Assembly (NCBI RefSeq): GCF_050320075.1
Contig: NZ_CP190018.1
Strand: one strand, 5' to 3'
Source: Escherichia coli
Lineage (GTDB): Bacteria > Pseudomonadota > Gammaproteobacteria > Enterobacterales > Enterobacteriaceae
Length of the DNA stretch: 64,000 nt
Each line of letters opens with the position of its first letter. Positions within the stretch are counted from its first letter, which is position 1. The notes beneath the pieces were generated by a model that worked only from the letters and a program-made list of their open reading frames with translations, had not been told where the DNA came from and made no database searches. Shown piece by piece: positions 43,111 through 48,128 of this stretch. The position numbers and the translations under genes were made by a program.

Positions 43111-43559
43111 TACATTTACATTATTCTGTCTTATTAATTGAAAATTATTTCCCTCTTTATTATCCATGCAGCAATAATGTTTTGCGTTCAGATAACCTGC
43201 TAAATAATTAAGAACGTGAGAATATCTATTTTTTTATCACGCAAAACAAGTTTGTACTAATTATGTTCGCTTGATGAGCAAACACCGTGCTATCTGTTGC
43301 TTTTGCAATCGCAATCGTTAAAACTATCAACAACTTGGGATAGTTACATTGTGAATAATTGTTACTTTTTTGTTTGTTGAATCTTTTTATAAATACCCCG
43401 TCTGACATCGAATAGGGGTTATTCTTATAAATTTTACCTGCTTTGCTATCAATGATGCCGTTTTATTAAGAATGGAGGAAGTTATTAGAGAAGATAAAGC
43501 ATAAAACTATTTCTCCCAGTTACGAATTTTTTAACATTGTTTTGTCACTTGCGTTATTA

Positions 43560-46500
43560 ATGAATAAGAAATTTAAATATAAGAAATCGCTTTTAGCGGC
43601 TATTTTGAGCGCAACCCTGTTAGCCGGTTGTGATGGCGGTGGTTCCGGATCTTCCTCCGATACGCCGCCTGTAGATTCTGGAACAGGGTCTTTGCCGGAA
43701 GTGAAACCTGATCCAACACCAAACCCGGAGCCGACGCCTGAGCCAACGCCGGACCCAGAACCTACGCCGGAACCGACACCTGATCCTGAGCCAACACCAG
43801 AACCGGAGCCAGAACCTGTTCCTACGAAAACGGGTTATCTGACCCTGGGCGGAAGCCAGCGGATAACTGGTGCTACTTGTAATGGTGAATCCAGCGATGG
43901 CTTTACCTTTACGCCAGGCGACAAAGTCACCTGTGTGGCAGGGAACAACACGACAATTGCTACCTTCGACACCCAGTCAGAAGCTGCGCGTAGCCTGCGT
44001 GCGGTTGAAAAAGTGTCGTTTAGTCTTGAGGATGCGCAAGAACTGGTGGCTTCCGATGACAAGAAAAGCAATGCGGTTTCGCTGGTAACGTCCAGTAACA
44101 GCTGTCCGGCGAATACAGAACAGGTTTGCCTGACGTTCTCCTCTGTGATCGAGAGTAAACGTTTCGACTCACTGTATAAGCAAATCGATCTGGCACCGGA
44201 AGAGTTCAAAAAGCTGGTCAATGAAGAGGTGGAAAACAATGCTGCGACCGATAAAGCGCCATCCACTCATACCTCACCGGTTGTGCCTGTCACCACGCCG
44301 GGAACAAAACCGGATCTGAACGCTTCCTTCGTGTCGGCTAACGCGGAACAGTTTTATCAGTATCAACCTTCGGAAATCATTCTCTCCGAAGGCCGACTGG
44401 TCGATAGCCAGGGATATGGTGTTGCTGGCGTCAACTACTACACCAATTCAGGCCGTGGCGTGACAGGGGAAAATGGTGAATTTTCCTTTAGCTGGGGCGA
44501 AACCATCTCCTTTGGTATCGATACCTTTGAACTGGGCTCAGTGCGCGGCAATAAGTCGACCATTGCATTGACTGAACTGGGTGATGAAGTTCGCGGGGCG
44601 AATATTGATCAGCTTATTCATCGCTATTCGACGACCGGGCAAAATAATACCCGTGTTGTTCCGGACGATGTACGCAAGGTCTTTGCCGAATATCCCAACG
44701 TGATCAACGAGATTATCAATCTCTCGTTATCCAACGGTGCGACGCTGGATGAAGGTGAGCAAGTTGTTAATCTGCCAAACGAATTTATTGAGCAGTTTAA
44801 GACGGGTCAAGCCAAAGAGATCGATACCGCAATCTGTGCGAAAACTGGCGGTTGCAACCAGGCACGCTGGTTCTCGCTGACGACGCGCAATGTTAATGAC
44901 GGCCAGATTCAGGGCGTTATCAACAAGCTGTGGGGCGTGGATACAAGTTACAAATCTGTCAGCAAGTTCCATGTATTCCATGACTCCACCAACTTCTATG
45001 GCAGCACCGGTAATGCGCGCGGTCAGGCGGTGGTGAATATCTCTAACGCGGCCTTCCCGATTCTGATGGCGCGTAATGATAAAAACTACTGGCTGGCCTT
45101 CGGCGAGAAACGCGCCTGGGATAAAAACGAGCTGGCGTACATTACGGAAGCGCCTTCTCTTGTTGAGCCGGAAAACGTTACGCGCGATACCGCCACCTTT
45201 AACCTGCCGTTTATTTCGCTGGGGCAAGTCGGTGAGGGCAAACTGATGGTTATCGGTAACCCGCACTACAACAGCATTTTGCGTTGTCCGAACGGTTACA
45301 GCTGGAACGGGGGCGTTAATAAAGACGGGCAGTGTACGCTCAGCGGTGATTCAGATGACATGAAGCACTTCATGCAGAACGTACTGCGCTATCTGTCCGA
45401 CGATAAATGGACTCCGGACGCGAAAGCCAGCATGACCGTAGGCACCAACCTGGATACTGTCTATTTCAAACGTCATGGTCAGGTTACAGGAAATAGCGCT
45501 GAGTTCGGCTTTCATCCGGATTTTGCGGGTATCTCTGTTGAGCATTTAAGTAGCTATGGCGATCTCGACCCGCAGGAAATGCCGCTGCTGATCCTCAACG
45601 GCTTTGAGTATGTGACTCAGGTTGGTAACGATCCTTATGCAATCCCGCTGCGAGCAGATACCAGCAAACCGAAGCTGACTCAGCAGGATGTGACCGATCT
45701 GATCGCCTATCTGAACAAAGGTGGATCGGTGCTGATCATGGAAAACGTGATGAGCAATCTTAAGGAAGAGAGCGCGTCTGGCTTTGTACGTCTGCTTGAT
45801 GCCGCAGGTCTGTCGATGGCACTGAACAAGTCGGTAGTAAATAACGATCCGCAAGGGTATCCGAACCGCGTTCGTCAGCAGCGCGCAACGGGCATTTGGG
45901 TCTATGAACGTTATCCTGCCGTAGATGGTGCGCTGCCGTACACCATCGATAGTAAGACAGGGGAAGTTAAGTGGAAATATCAGGTAGAAAACAAACCTGA
46001 TGACAAACCGAAGCTGGAAGTTGCCAGCTGGCTGGAAGATGTAGATGGCAAACAGGAAACGCGTTATGCCTTTATTGATGAGGCCGATCATAAAACAGAG
46101 GATTCTCTGAAGGCTGCGAAGGCAAAAATCTTTGAGAAGTTTCCTGGATTAAAGGAGTGTAAGGACCCAACTTACCACTACGAGGTCAACTGTCTGGAAT
46201 ATCGTCCTGGCACGGGGGTTCCGGTTACTGGTGGCATGTATGTTCCACAGTATACGCAACTAAGCCTTAACGCCGACACGGCAAAAGCGATGGTGCAGGC
46301 TGCGGATTTAGGCACCAACATTCAGCGTCTGTATCAGCATGAGCTCTACTTCCGGACCAATGGTCGCAAAGGTGAGCGTCTGAGCAGCGTCGATCTGGAA
46401 CGTCTGTACCAGAACATGTCGGTCTGGCTGTGGAATAAAATTGAATATCGCTATGAAAACGACAAGGATGACGAGCTGGGCTTTAAAACGTTCACTGAGT

Positions 46501-48128
46501 TCCTGAATTGCTACGCCAACAATGCCTATAGCGAAGGCACGCAGTGTTCTGCAGATCTGAAAAAATCGCTTGTCGATAACAACATGATCTACGGTGACGG
46601 TAGCAGCAAAGCAGGCATGATGAACCCGAGCTATCCGCTCAACTATATGGAAAAACCGCTGACGCGCCTGATGCTGGGTCGTTCCTGGTGGGATCTGAAC
46701 ATCAAAGTTGATGTCGAGAAGTATCCGGGAGCGGTATCGGCAGAAGGTGAGAAGGTTACTGAAACCATCAGCCTGTACTCGAATCCGACCAAATGGTTTG
46801 CGGGTAACATGCAGTCTACTGGCCTGTGGGCTCCGGCTCAGAAAGAGGTCACCATTGAGTCTACTGCATCAGTTCCTGTGACTGTCACCGTGGCGCTGGC
46901 CGACGATCTGACCGGACGCGAGAAGCATGAAGTCGCGCTGAACCGTCCGCCAAAAGTGACGAAAACCTATGATCTGAAAGCCAATGATAAGGTGACCTTC
47001 AAGGTGCCTTACGGTGGTCTGATTTATATCAAGGGCAACAGCCCAAAGAATGAGTCAGCCGAATTCACCTTTACTGGTGTGGTAAAAGCGCCGTTCTATA
47101 AAGACGGCGAATGGAAAAACGCTCTGAACTCCCCTGCGCCGTTGGGTGAGCTGGAGTCAGATTCTTTCGTCTACACTGCACCGAAGAACAACCTGAACGC
47201 CAGCAATTACAAGGATAAGGGTGGCCTGAAACAATTCGCTAAAGATCTGGATACCTTTGCCAGCTCGATGAATGATTTCTACGGTCGTAATGATGAAGAC
47301 GGTAAGCACCGGATGTTTACCTATAAAAACTTGACGGGGCACAAGCATCGTTTCACCAACGATGTGCAGATCTCCATCGGTGATGCGCACTCTGGTTATC
47401 CGGTAATGAACAGCAGCTTCTCGACGAACAGCACCACGCTGCCGACGACGCCGCTGAACGACTGGCTGATCTGGCACGAAGTTGGTCACAACGCCGCCGA
47501 AACGCCGCTGACTGTTCCTGGCGCAACTGAAGTAGCGAACAACGTGCTGGCGCTGTACATGCAGGATCGCTATCTCGGCAAGATGAACCGTGTCGCTGAC
47601 GACATTACCGTCGCGCCGGAATATCTGGAGGAGAGCAACGGTCAGGCATGGGCGCGCGGCGGTGCGGGGGACCGTCTGCTGATGTACGCACAGCTGAAAG
47701 AGTGGGCAGAGAAAAACTTTGATATCAAGACGTGGTATCCAGATGGCAATCTGCCAGAGTTCTACAGCGAGCGTGAAGGGATGAAAGGCTGGAACCTGTT
47801 CCAGTTGATGCACCGTAAAGCGCGCGGCGATGAGGTTGGCAATAACAAGTTCGGCAGTAAGAACTACTGTGCTGAATCTAACGGTAACGCTGCCGACACG
47901 CTGATGCTGTGTGCCTCCTGGGTCGCCCAGACGGATCTTTCGGAGTTCTTTAAGAAATGGAATCCGGGCGCGAATGCTTACCAGTTGCCGGGAGCGACGG
48001 AGATGAGCTTCGAAGGCGGTGTGAGCCAGTCGGCTTACAACACGCTCGCGTCACTCGATCTGCCGAAACCGAAGCAAGGGCCGGAAACCATTAATAAGGT
48101 TACCGAATATTCGATGCCTGCTGAATAA
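43560..48128 (+). CDS. sslE: SslE/YghJ surface lipoprotein, M60-like zinc metalloprotease (mucinase), substrate of the adjacent type II secretion system
   Basis: Track ORF 43542..48128 (TTG start) trimmed to the ATG at 43560 (MNKKFKYKKSLLAAILSATLLAGC). LAGC lipobox, a Pro/Glu/Thr-rich linker, and an HEVGH zinc-binding motif (LIWHEVGHNAAE). Confidence 0.9.
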   Translation: MNKKFKYKKSLLAAILSATLLAGCDGGGSGSSSDTPPVDSGTGSLPEVKPDPTPNPEPTPEPTPDPEPTPEPTPDPEPTPEPEPEPVPTKTGYLTLGGSQRITGATCNGESSDGFTFTPGDKVTCVAGNNTTIATFDTQSEAARSLRAVEKVSFSLEDAQELVASDDKKSNAVSLVTSSNSCPANTEQVCLTFSSVIESKRFDSLYKQIDLAPEEFKKLVNEEVENNAATDKAPSTHTSPVVPVTTPGTKPDLNASFVSANAEQFYQYQPSEIILSEGRLVDSQGYGVAGVNYYTNSGRGVTGENGEFSFSWGETISFGIDTFELGSVRGNKSTIALTELGDEVRGANIDQLIHRYSTTGQNNTRVVPDDVRKVFAEYPNVINEIINLSLSNGATLDEGEQVVNLPNEFIEQFKTGQAKEIDTAICAKTGGCNQARWFSLTTRNVNDGQIQGVINKLWGVDTSYKSVSKFHVFHDSTNFYGSTGNARGQAVVNISNAAFPILMARNDKNYWLAFGEKRAWDKNELAYITEAPSLVEPENVTRDTATFNLPFISLGQVGEGKLMVIGNPHYNSILRCPNGYSWNGGVNKDGQCTLSGDSDDMKHFMQNVLRYLSDDKWTPDAKASMTVGTNLDTVYFKRHGQVTGNSAEFGFHPDFAGISVEHLSSYGDLDPQEMPLLILNGFEYVTQVGNDPYAIPLRADTSKPKLTQQDVTDLIAYLNKGGSVLIMENVMSNLKEESASGFVRLLDAAGLSMALNKSVVNNDPQGYPNRVRQQRATGIWVYERYPAVDGALPYTIDSKTGEVKWKYQVENKPDDKPKLEVASWLEDVDGKQETRYAFIDEADHKTEDSLKAAKAKIFEKFPGLKECKDPTYHYEVNCLEYRPGTGVPVTGGMYVPQYTQLSLNADTAKAMVQAADLGTNIQRLYQHELYFRTNGRKGERLSSVDLERLYQNMSVWLWNKIEYRYENDKDDELGFKTFTEFLNCYANNAYSEGTQCSADLKKSLVDNNMIYGDGSSKAGMMNPSYPLNYMEKPLTRLMLGRSWWDLNIKVDVEKYPGAVSAEGEKVTETISLYSNPTKWFAGNMQSTGLWAPAQKEVTIESTASVPVTVTVALADDLTGREKHEVALNRPPKVTKTYDLKANDKVTFKVPYGGLIYIKGNSPKNESAEFTFTGVVKAPFYKDGEWKNALNSPAPLGELESDSFVYTAPKNNLNASNYKDKGGLKQFAKDLDTFASSMNDFYGRNDEDGKHRMFTYKNLTGHKHRFTNDVQISIGDAHSGYPVMNSSFSTNSTTLPTTPLNDWLIWHEVGHNAAETPLTVPGATEVANNVLALYMQDRYLGKMNRVADDITVAPEYLEESNGQAWARGGAGDRLLMYAQLKEWAEKNFDIKTWYPDGNLPEFYSEREGMKGWNLFQLMHRKARGDEVGNNKFGSKNYCAESNGNAADTLMLCASWVAQTDLSEFFKKWNPGANAYQLPGATEMSFEGGVSQSAYNTLASLDLPKPKQGPETINKVTEYSMPAE
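43705..43825 (+). repeat. In-frame tandem repeat encoding the (P-E-P-T-P-D)n low-complexity linker of SslE
   Basis: Reiterated ccggagccgacgcct / ccagaacctacgccg-type units; protein reads PDPTPNPEPTPEPTPDPEPTPEPTPDPEPTPEPEPEPVPT. Confidence 0.8.

What the first reader, a model, noticed from the sequence alone, without database searches (positions are those of the whole stretch)
43705..43825. Repetitive Pro/Glu/Thr-rich linker in SslE encoded by a DNA tandem repeat
Seen in sequence: the region just after the lipobox encodes PDPTPNPEPTPEPTPDPEPTPEPTPDPEPTPEPEPEPVPT from reiterated roughly 15-18 bp units. Inference: such in-frame repeats are prone to expansion and contraction, giving strain-to-strain variation in linker length that could alter surface exposure of the protease domain.
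Basis: partly seen in the sequence, partly recalled or inferred. Interest (0 to 1): 0.3.

Follow-up and report, generated by a model that had tools for sequence, protein, structure and literature searches.

The report
Proline-rich tether of E. coli SslE
This is the already-described proline-rich spacer that holds the E. coli surface mucinase SslE away from its lipid anchor; its length differs slightly between strains (34 to 42 residues, 83% have 40), which is real but ordinary.

Summary
They form a strict (Pro-X)20 tract in sslE, starting 25 residues after the lipobox Cys24.

The DNA period is 6 nt, with higher orders of 12, 18 and 30 nt; there is no 15-nt period. The DNA repeat is degenerate: 70-75% match, longest exact repeat 11 nt. 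It is no more repetitive than the same peptide written with permuted synonymous codons.

Among 4,091 sslE-positive complete E. coli genomes, tract length is polymorphic at 34, 36, 38, 40 and 42 residues. The spread is narrow. Two systematic samples (118 genomes) gave 83% with 40 aa, 14% with 38 aa, and about 1-2% each with 42 and 36 aa; one further genome has 34 aa.

Every indel is a multiple of 6 nt and keeps the Pro-X register. Three of the four indel types lie exactly on short direct repeats of matching spacing, which points to slippage. The 12-nt deletion occurs on at least three unrelated haplotypes.

Alleles look stable within lineages, for example in K-12 and BL21 stocks. No effect on surface exposure has been shown, and one is unlikely for changes of at most 2 nm.

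The literature already calls this segment SslE's flexible linker or proline-rich loop. The finding is ordinary and of low interest.

The parts
43560..48128 (+). sslE (yghJ) coding sequence, 1522 codons plus stop; a lipoprotein M60 zinc metalloprotease (mucinase)
   Evidence: ORF and translation, with HEVGH present. Pfam DUF4092, M60-like_N and Peptidase_M60 above their cutoffs. 100% identical to an annotated sslE. Full-length match to PDB 23px.
43560..43631 (+). Signal peptide with lipobox L-A-G-C (43620-43631); Cys24 is the lipidated residue
   Evidence: Read directly from the translation. Cys24 is invariant across the 12-sequence family alignment.
43632..43706 (+). Gly/Ser-rich proximal part of the tether (residues 25-49, DGGGSGSSSDTPPVDSGTGSLPEVK). 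It includes Asp at +2 and a PPV motif at 43665-43673.
   Evidence: Translation. AF2 pLDDT is 40-48 with no secondary structure. This stretch has no indels in any of the 24 alleles read.
43707..43826 (+). The finding itself: a strict (Pro-X)20 tract, residues 50-89, with X = E8 T7 D3 N1 V1
   Evidence: Pro occupies every odd position in all 24 alleles. AF2 gives no helix or strand here.
43734..43750 (+). Direct repeat ACGCC (43734-43738 and 43746-50), 12 nt apart. This is the site of the 12-nt deletion that gives the 36-residue alleles.
   Evidence: Repeat listing. Alleles L005, L020, L021 and L022 lack CCT GAG CCA ACG.
43746..43771 (+). Direct repeat ACGCCGGA (43746-43753 and 43764-43771), 18 nt apart. 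This is the site of the 18-nt deletion that gives the 34-residue allele.
   Evidence: Repeat listing. Allele L019, strain MB50.
43779..43789 (+). Direct repeat CCTGA (43779-43783 and 43785-43789), 6 nt apart. This is the site of the 6-nt duplication (CCT GAT) that gives the 42-residue allele.
   Evidence: Repeat listing. Allele L015, found in 40 records.
43791..43799 (+). CCA ACA CCA: site of the 6-nt deletion that gives the 38-residue alleles. Only a 3-nt CCA microhomology is present.
   Evidence: Alleles L002, L004, L008, L017 and L018. At least 463 records carry this deletion.
43827..44249 (+). Start of the first globular domain (NT1 of Corsini et al.), beginning KTGYLTLGG
   Evidence: AF2 pLDDT exceeds 90 from residue 90 onward, with strands and helices. 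The recombinant constructs in PMC8881592 start here.

Best explanation
The tract is the distal, stiff half of a 65-residue tether. The tether joins the lipidated Cys24 of SslE to its first folded domain.

Shown here:
- The tract is a strict alternation of Pro with Glu, Thr or Asp.
- It has no predicted helix or strand.
- It sits between the lipid anchor and a well-folded domain.
- Homologues at 31-88% identity all carry a Pro-rich, acidic tether of 31-65 residues at this position, with unrelated sequences.
- Within E. coli the Pro positions never change, while their third codon bases and the X residues do.

Inferred:
- A (Pro-X)n chain cannot form helix or sheet and tends toward an extended polyproline-II-like rod of about 0.3 nm per residue. 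That gives up to about 12 nm for 40 residues.
- Its negative charge keeps it off the anionic membrane and LPS.
- It therefore acts as a passive stalk. The stalk lets the 160-kDa mucinase move freely, first at the inner membrane (Asp at +2 is the Lol-avoidance signal known from PulA), and then on the cell surface after export by the adjacent type II secretion system.

Length changes arise by occasional replication slippage between 3-8-nt direct repeats spaced 6, 12 or 18 nt apart. Only multiples of 6 nt are seen, which preserves the Pro-X register.

The mixed use of CCT, CCA and CCG keeps exact repeats at 11 nt or less, so slippage is rare. Most strains keep 40 residues. The variants (34-42) are probably neutral or nearly so.
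For: Strict (P-X)20 and composition. Pro is at every odd position in all 24 alleles.

Among the 7 distinct 40-residue DNA alleles, 8 of 20 Pro codons are polymorphic and all those changes are synonymous. Of the 11 polymorphic X codons, 6 carry replacements, confined to D/E/T/N/I.

AF2 with a 12-sequence alignment gives residues 1-89 no secondary structure, with pLDDT of 40-83. Residue 90 onward is folded with pLDDT above 90.

Family comparison: the tether is 31-65 aa, 15-36% Pro, with D+E of 4-15 and K+R of 0-2, and its sequence is not conserved.

Length census: two systematic samples give 98/118 with 40 aa, 17 with 38, 2 with 42 and 1 with 36. A 34-aa allele also exists.

Indels lie on direct repeats of matching spacing.

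Codon evidence: CCG makes up 6/20 Pro codons in the tract against 44/68 in the rest of sslE (Fisher p = 0.009). DNA repetitiveness does not exceed that of codon-permuted versions.

The adjacent genes are pppA, gspS2 and gspC-E.

Literature: described as an 'unstructured ~5 kDa region' and 'flexible linker', and removed from all recombinant constructs (PMC8881592). Also described as an 'N-terminal proline-rich loop' (PMC10637626).
Against: No experiment or computation here measures stiffness, reach or function of the tract. The extended-rod geometry comes from general knowledge of Pro-X peptides.

The dominance of exactly 40 residues, and the recurrence of the same deletion on different haplotypes, could also reflect selection on length rather than neutrality.

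The tract's Thr residues may be O-glycosylated. In that case it would be more than a passive spacer.

The census rests on 118 sampled genomes plus targeted searches, not on all 4,091. Rare longer alleles could have been missed.
Confidence: 0.7

Rival explanations
1. The repeat is a tuning knob: expansion and contraction change how far the protease projects, and strains differ adaptively in linker length.
For: Length is polymorphic across five classes. The 12-nt deletion sits on at least three very different haplotypes: L020, L021 and L005/L022. The 42- and 36-residue alleles differ from a 40-residue allele by 0-2 SNPs in 702 flanking nt, so the indels are recent and recurrent. Across the family, tether length ranges from 31 to 65 residues.
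Against: 83% of sampled genomes share one length, and the range is only -6 to +2 residues. That is about -1.9 to +0.6 nm on a tether of 65 residues. No expansion beyond one extra Pro-X unit was seen. The codons are scrambled, which works against slippage. Length classes showed no obvious link to host or pathotype in the rows listed; for example, the 38-aa allele occurs in BL21, an O25:H4 clinical strain, poultry and yak isolates.
Confidence: 0.1
2. The tract is a mucin-like O-glycosylated, immunogenic stalk. Its Thr residues carry sugars, and substitutions or indels at X positions (T to I, E or D; loss of a P-T unit) change glycosite number and antigenicity under antibody pressure.
For: The window allele has seven Thr residues in Pro-Thr context. 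YghJ is heavily O-glycosylated, with 54 mapped sites (PMC8417355). Rabbits immunised with glycosylated YghJ, but not with the non-glycosylated form, enrich proline-rich phage motifs (PMC10637626). Replacements are concentrated at X positions, and the common 6-nt deletion removes one Thr.
Against: No glycosite has been mapped inside residues 50-89. The first modified tryptic peptide starts at residue 91, and the tract is a single 41-residue tryptic peptide that was probably never observed. The diversity is low: 5 distinct peptides among 13 alleles of 40 aa. That is not what strong diversifying selection would give.
Confidence: 0.12
3. The tract matters at the mRNA level. It is a C-rich, G-poor stretch lying 35-160 nt downstream of a PPV stall motif. 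It could let Rho load when the ribosome stalls, making sslE and the downstream secretion genes depend on EF-P.
For: PPV lies at residues 36-38. GC skew is -0.31 at 43700-43799. yghJ is listed among PPX genes down-regulated in a delta-efp strain, 4.4-fold at RNA level and 2.3-fold at protein level (PMC5021804).
Against: The paper did not test yghJ and found no Rho effect for two other candidates. The C-richness follows automatically from the Pro codons. The tract RNA is neither more nor less structured than shuffled versions (z = 0.45). The peptide-level constraint (invariant Pro, scrambled codons) explains the sequence without any RNA role.
Confidence: 0.04
4. It is a hypervariable coding tandem repeat of the contingency-locus or VNTR type. 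It would change length at high frequency within clones.
For: The repeat is in frame in a surface virulence factor, and indels are concentrated in the tract. At least 5 events fall in 120 nt, against about 2 in the 402 coding flank nt of the same 24 sequences.
Against: The DNA units are only 70-75% alike and the longest exact repeat is 11 nt. One length dominates. All K-12 and BL21 derivative assemblies that appeared in the tables keep their parental length. Identical alleles recur in tens to hundreds of independent genomes. No frameshifting indels appear in complete genomes.
Confidence: 0.03

Closest known systems
The 'flexible linker' or 'unstructured ~5 kDa region' of SslE/YghJ, as drawn by Corsini et al. 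[quoted passage not shown]
   Same: It is the same segment of the same protein. It lies between the lipobox and NT1, is omitted from recombinant constructs, and is drawn as undefined in structure models.
   Different: Those papers do not describe its strict Pro-X register, its codon scrambling or its length polymorphism. Nesta et al. 2014 state only that variability is spread along the whole protein.
Pro-X spacer rods of other envelope proteins: the TonB (Glu-Pro)n-(Lys-Pro)n region, the OmpA Ala-Pro hinge, and the EP repeats of trypanosome procyclin
   Same: All share alternating Pro-X dipeptides, no regular secondary structure, and a position between a membrane anchor and a functional domain. 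Procyclin EP repeats are also acidic. This resemblance is the reason for the sub-threshold Pfam Trypan_PARP hit.
   Different: There is no homology: 32 bits against a cutoff of 100. SslE's tract mixes Thr with Glu and Asp, and lacks the basic Lys-Pro half of TonB. The comparison with TonB and OmpA rests on general knowledge and was not tested here.
The N-terminal tether of the lipoprotein pullulanase PulA (Klebsiella), the model lipidated type II secretion substrate
   Same: Both are lipoproteins with Asp at +2, are exported by a T2SS encoded next door, and end up surface-anchored and then released. In both, a low-complexity segment follows the Cys. This comparison is from general knowledge; the SslE side is shown.
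   Different: The catalytic domains are unrelated. PulA's tether was not examined here.
Pro/Thr-rich O-glycosylated interdomain linkers, such as those of cellulases and mycobacterial lipoproteins
   Same: Both have Pro-Thr-rich composition, an extended conformation, and frequent small in-frame length changes between relatives.
   Different: Glycosylation of this tract is unproven. Here acidic residues are as common as Thr.

Membership tests
SslE/AcfD lipoprotein M60 metalloprotease (identity of the gene) | Domain set DUF4092 + M60-like_N + Peptidase_M60 with an HExxH motif | tested here: met
   Pfam scores of 307.8, 41 and 124 bits, all above their cutoffs. HEVGH is present in the translation.
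SslE/AcfD lipoprotein M60 metalloprotease (identity of the gene) | N-terminal signal peptide with a lipobox Cys | tested here: met
   LLAGC with Cys24. This Cys is invariant in the family alignment.
SslE/AcfD lipoprotein M60 metalloprotease (identity of the gene) | Encoded next to the T2SS-beta genes (pppA, gspS-beta, gspC-M) | tested here: met
   Annotation of the 100%-identical strain MLI106K3. Matching ORFs lie in the window downstream of 48268.
Extended Pro-X spacer (polyproline-II-like tether) | Regular alternation of Pro with non-Pro residues over tens of residues | tested here: met
   Pro is at all 20 odd positions and at none of the even ones. This holds in all 24 alleles.
Extended Pro-X spacer (polyproline-II-like tether) | No helix, strand or globular packing; flanked by an anchor and a folded domain | tested here: met
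   In the AF2 model, DSSP assigns no secondary structure to residues 1-89, and the fold starts at residue 90.
Extended Pro-X spacer (polyproline-II-like tether) | Composition conserved among homologues, but not sequence or length | tested here: met
   In 11 homologues at 31-88% identity the tether is 31-59 aa against 65 aa in the window protein. It is 15-36% Pro and acidic, and cannot be aligned.
Extended Pro-X spacer (polyproline-II-like tether) | Measured extended or stiff conformation (CD, NMR, SAXS) | not testable with these tools
   This needs the peptide in solution.
Hypervariable coding tandem repeat (VNTR or contingency locus) | Near-identical DNA units in tandem | tested here: not met
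   TRF reports 70-75% match. The longest exact repeat is 11 nt, and there is no excess over codon-permuted controls.
Hypervariable coding tandem repeat (VNTR or contingency locus) | Broad copy-number distribution among strains | tested here: not met
   83% of genomes have 40 aa, 14% have 38 aa, and the total range is 34-42 aa.
Hypervariable coding tandem repeat (VNTR or contingency locus) | Length changes within a clone or lineage | tested here: inconclusive
   All K-12 and BL21 derivatives that appeared in the tables keep their parental length. No lineage was censused completely.
Pfam PF05887 Trypan_PARP (procyclic acidic repetitive protein) | Score at or above the curated gathering cutoff | tested here: not met
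   32.2 bits against a cutoff of 100. The hit is compositional only.
O-glycosylated Pro/Thr linker | Modified Ser or Thr mapped inside the tract | not tested
   The published BEMAP map starts at residue 91. The tract is one 41-residue tryptic peptide that is not reported (PMC8417355).

The most novel reading that the evidence does not exclude
The tract may be a mucin-like, O-glycosylated and immunodominant stalk. Its small indels and its Thr-to-Ile, Glu or Asp replacements would then change the number of glycosites: 7 Thr in this allele, 6 in the 38-residue and K-12 alleles. In that case the polymorphism would be antigenic variation rather than neutral slippage. This would matter for SslE-based vaccines made from unglycosylated, linker-less protein.
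Probability: 0.1. Interest if true: 0.4.

Novelty: already known. Interest (0 to 1): 0.12.

Why it matters
It matters little. SslE is a vaccine candidate and a colonisation factor, so it is useful to know three things: its tether is a strict Pro-X rod, 83% of strains share one length, and the few variants differ by one to three Pro-X units. This argues that the linker can be ignored, as structural and vaccine work already does.

The only open point with practical weight is whether the tract's seven Thr residues are glycosylated and immunogenic. Published glycoproteomics could not see this peptide.

Tried and rejected
1. The search for homologous proteins with residues 1-230 returned only truncated or frameshifted E. 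coli fragments of at most 390 aa, and no full-length or cross-species proteins. It added a few allele sequences, plus one divergent fragment (P0041). The family comparison therefore came from the search of protein representatives.

2. I first tried to use BLAST identity classes as evidence that length is tied to haplotype. I rejected this as circular, because the gap itself lowers identity. It was replaced by SNP counts in flanks with the tract removed.

3. The Pfam Trypan_PARP hit was rejected as compositional, at 32 bits against a cutoff of 100.

4. An RNA structure role was rejected. The tract's fold energy equals that of its shuffles (z = 0.45).

5. I tested whether the DNA repeat reflects recent unit duplication. 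It does not: codon-permutation controls are as repetitive or more so.

6. A 15-bp unit was rejected. Lag-15 identity is 0.22, below random.

7. I did not attempt a full census of all 4,091 genomes. The tool lists at most 60 rows per search, so I used two systematic 'spread' samples and allele-specific queries instead.
Full report
**What is there**

The ORF at window 43560-48128 (+) encodes a 1522-residue protein. Pfam finds DUF4092, M60-like_N and Peptidase_M60 above their cutoffs. The translation contains HEVGH. The first 501 nt are 100% identical to the annotated sslE of E. coli MLI106K3. In that strain the gene lies between the glcDEFGBA genes and pppA-gspS2-gspC-gspD-gspE. A full-length match exists in the PDB (23px, 'Putative lipoprotein AcfD homolog').

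The N-terminus has four parts:
- A signal peptide ending in the lipobox LLAGC, with Cys24.
- A Gly/Ser-rich stretch, residues 25-49.
- Residues 50-89, window 43707-43826, reading PDPTPNPEPTPEPTPDPEPTPEPTPDPEPTPEPEPEPVPT.
- The first folded domain, starting KTGYLTLGG.

Its coordinates are 2 nt off, and 'just after the lipobox' skips 25 residues.

**Nature of the repeat**

The tract is a strict (Pro-X)20. Pro occupies all 20 odd positions, and the X positions are E8, T7, D3, N1 and V1.

At the DNA level, self-identity is high only at lags that are multiples of 6: 0.53 at 6, 0.56 at 12, 0.64 at 18 and 0.70 at 30. It is low elsewhere, for example 0.22 at lag 15. TRF reports periods of 30 (2.5 copies, 75% match), 18 (2.7 copies, 70%) and 12.

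The periodicity is far beyond chance for shuffled DNA; 0 of 2000 shuffles reached it. It is fully explained by the peptide. Permuting synonymous codons within the tract, or redrawing them from the rest of sslE, gives equal or greater DNA repetitiveness (lag-12 identity 0.565 observed against 0.635 expected from gene usage, P = 0.006).

The longest exact direct repeat is 11 nt. Pro codons are spread over CCT 7, CCA 7 and CCG 6. The rest of the gene uses CCG for 44 of 68 Pro codons (Fisher p = 0.009).

In short, this is a peptide repeat written in scrambled codons. It is a poor substrate for slippage.

**Variation among strains**

4,091 of 5,426 complete E. coli genomes carry this 5' end of sslE. 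I read 24 alleles directly (analysed).

Two systematic samples were taken down the whole ranking. The query ended before the first flanking indel, so record span gives tract length directly.

| Sample | 40 aa | 38 aa | 42 aa | 36 aa |
|---|---|---|---|---|
| (59 genomes) | 49 | 9 | 1 | 0 |
| (59 genomes) | 49 | 8 | 1 | 1 |
| Pooled (118 genomes) | 98 (83%) | 17 (14%) | 2 | 1 |

Allele-specific queries gave these record counts:
- One 38-residue allele: 463 records at 99% identity or better.
- The 42-residue allele: 40 records.
- 36-residue alleles: at least 18.
- A 34-residue allele: one record, strain MB50.

Nothing outside 34-42 residues was seen. In one search, only 17 records fell below 90% identity, which leaves little room for large hidden indels.

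**How the variants arise**

The four indel types are:
- 6-nt deletion of CCA ACA, giving 38 aa.
- 6-nt duplication of CCT GAT, giving 42 aa.
- 12-nt deletion of CCT GAG CCA ACG, giving 36 aa.
- 18-nt deletion, giving 34 aa.

All are multiples of 6 nt, so the Pro-X register is kept in every allele.

In the window allele, three of the four coincide with direct repeats of exactly the right spacing: CCTGA at 6 nt, ACGCC at 12 nt and ACGCCGGA at 18 nt. The fourth has only a CCA microhomology. That is the footprint of slipped-strand mispairing.

With the tract removed, flanking SNP counts show the following:
- The 42-residue allele has 0 SNPs in 702 flanking nt relative to a 40-residue allele.
- A 36-residue allele has 2 SNPs relative to a 40-residue allele.
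- The 34-residue allele has 0 SNPs relative to a 40-residue allele.
- The 12-nt deletion occurs on at least three haplotypes that differ from one another by 37-100 flank SNPs.

In L020 and L021 the tract SNPs on both sides of the deletion match the respective backgrounds. The events are therefore recent and recurrent, and indels are denser in the tract than in its coding flanks.

Each allele is also stable. K-12 and BL21 derivatives keep their lengths wherever they appear, and alleles recur unchanged in tens to hundreds of genomes.

**Constraint**

Among seven distinct 40-residue DNA alleles, 8 of 20 Pro codons are polymorphic, and every one of those changes is synonymous. Eleven X codons are polymorphic. 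Six carry replacements, all within D/E/T/N/I. A P-to-S variant exists in a truncated fragment cluster (P0015).

Across the family, representatives at 31-88% identity all have a tether at this position. It is 31-65 residues long, 15-36% Pro, acidic (D+E 4-15, K+R 0-2), and has no conserved sequence. The strict Pro-X form is confined to the Escherichia-like sequences; P0067 has 34 residues.

AF2 with a 12-sequence alignment gives no helix or strand for residues 1-89. pLDDT rises from 40 to 83 across that stretch. From residue 90 the model is confidently folded.

**Most likely function**

These features fit a passive spacer. The tether has a flexible Gly/Ser part and then a stiff, acidic Pro-X rod. 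The rod holds the large enzyme away from its lipid anchor.

From general knowledge of Pro-X peptides (about 0.3 nm per residue), 40 residues span up to about 12 nm, and the observed range of 34-42 residues spans about 10.5-13 nm. Asp at +2 after Cys24 is the classical Lol-avoidance signal, as in PulA. This suggests the tether first works at the inner membrane, before export by the neighbouring T2SS. That step is inference.

The literature already labels this segment an 'unstructured ~5 kDa region' and 'flexible linker', and removes it from constructs (PMC8881592). [quoted passage not shown] Nesta et al. 2014 note only that variability is spread along the whole protein.

**Rivals**

- Adaptive length tuning is not excluded. 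It is weakened by the narrow range, the dominance of one length and the anti-slippage codon pattern.
- A glycosylated, immunogenic stalk is the most interesting alternative. YghJ carries 54 mapped O-glycosites, but the tryptic map starts at residue 91 and could not see the tract (PMC8417355). Sera against glycosylated YghJ enrich proline-rich motifs.
- An mRNA role has no direct support. The idea is a C-rich, rut-like stretch after a PPV stall motif, and yghJ is down-regulated in delta-efp (PMC5021804). GC skew is -0.31, but that follows from the Pro codons, and the RNA folds like its shuffles.
- A contingency-locus reading fails its defining tests.

**Verdict**

The feature is nonetheless the known SslE linker, with a modest slippage-type length polymorphism. 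Novelty: already known. Interest: low.

Noticed in passing
window 43260-43559 (glcA-sslE intergenic region): The 300 nt upstream of sslE differ by 28-31 mismatches from most E. coli alleles, while the first 147 coding nt differ by only 0-3. The nearest upstream type (13 mismatches) belongs to the divergent strain 100248. This suggests a recombination breakpoint near the start codon and a divergent promoter region in this strain and in MLI106K3.
   Followed up: partly
window 43632-43634 (Asp25, +2 after the lipobox Cys): Asp at +2 is the classical Lol-avoidance (inner-membrane retention) signal, as in the T2SS lipoprotein substrate PulA. It fits export of SslE by the adjacent T2SS. This rests on general knowledge only.
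   Followed up: no
window 43665-43673 (PPV, residues 36-38): A polyproline stall motif lies 12 codons upstream of the tract. yghJ is listed among PPX genes down-regulated in a delta-efp strain, 4.4-fold at RNA level and 2.3-fold at protein level (PMC5021804). The downstream tract is C-rich and G-poor.
   Followed up: partly
window 43869-43874 and downstream; loci L001, L011, L014: A separate 3-nt indel lies just after the tract (TG-ATCNG against TGDITCND). The 5' region of sslE is also mosaic. For example, NA3664 (L008) has a window-like tract with UTI89-like downstream sequence, and an O25:H4 strain carries the non-B2-type 38-residue allele. Together these point to intragenic recombination.
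   Followed up: partly
E. coli genome searches: 1,335 of 5,426 complete E. coli genomes have no match to the sslE 5' end. Five matches lie on plasmids, and some genomes have 2-3 matching places.
   Followed up: no
L007 (strain 0H15); H60 (SWYHX138.33gt); P0006, P0066: sslE decay is common. It is annotated as a pseudogene in 0H15, and only 58 nt remain in SWYHX138.33gt. Some protein clusters have an SslE N-terminus fused to GspM-like or secretin-like sequence (P0006, P0066). These fusions imply deletions inside the sslE-gsp locus.
   Followed up: no
L007 (strain 0H15), tract: This 40-residue allele has a rearranged end (PDPDPEPEPEPEPVPT) containing four perfect CCA GAG units. That is a cleaner tandem repeat than in any other allele, and it probably arose by compensating slippage or conversion events.
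   Followed up: no
P0020, P0028: Single-member assembly-derived proteins read through the tract in a shifted frame and then return to frame. These are probably sequencing or assembly errors in the C-rich tract rather than real alleles.
   Followed up: no
P0041 / P0143: A divergent AcfD-like fragment (53% identity) is labelled E. coli. It has a much shorter, non-strict tether (…HPSDPSSENTPIIKPTPQPEATPT) before the same KTGYLTLGGSQ start of NT1.
   Followed up: no
PDB 23px, 23py, 23pz: Three solved entries of a 1520-residue 'Putative lipoprotein AcfD homolog' match the whole protein. Whether the tether is resolved in them could not be checked with these tools.
   Followed up: no
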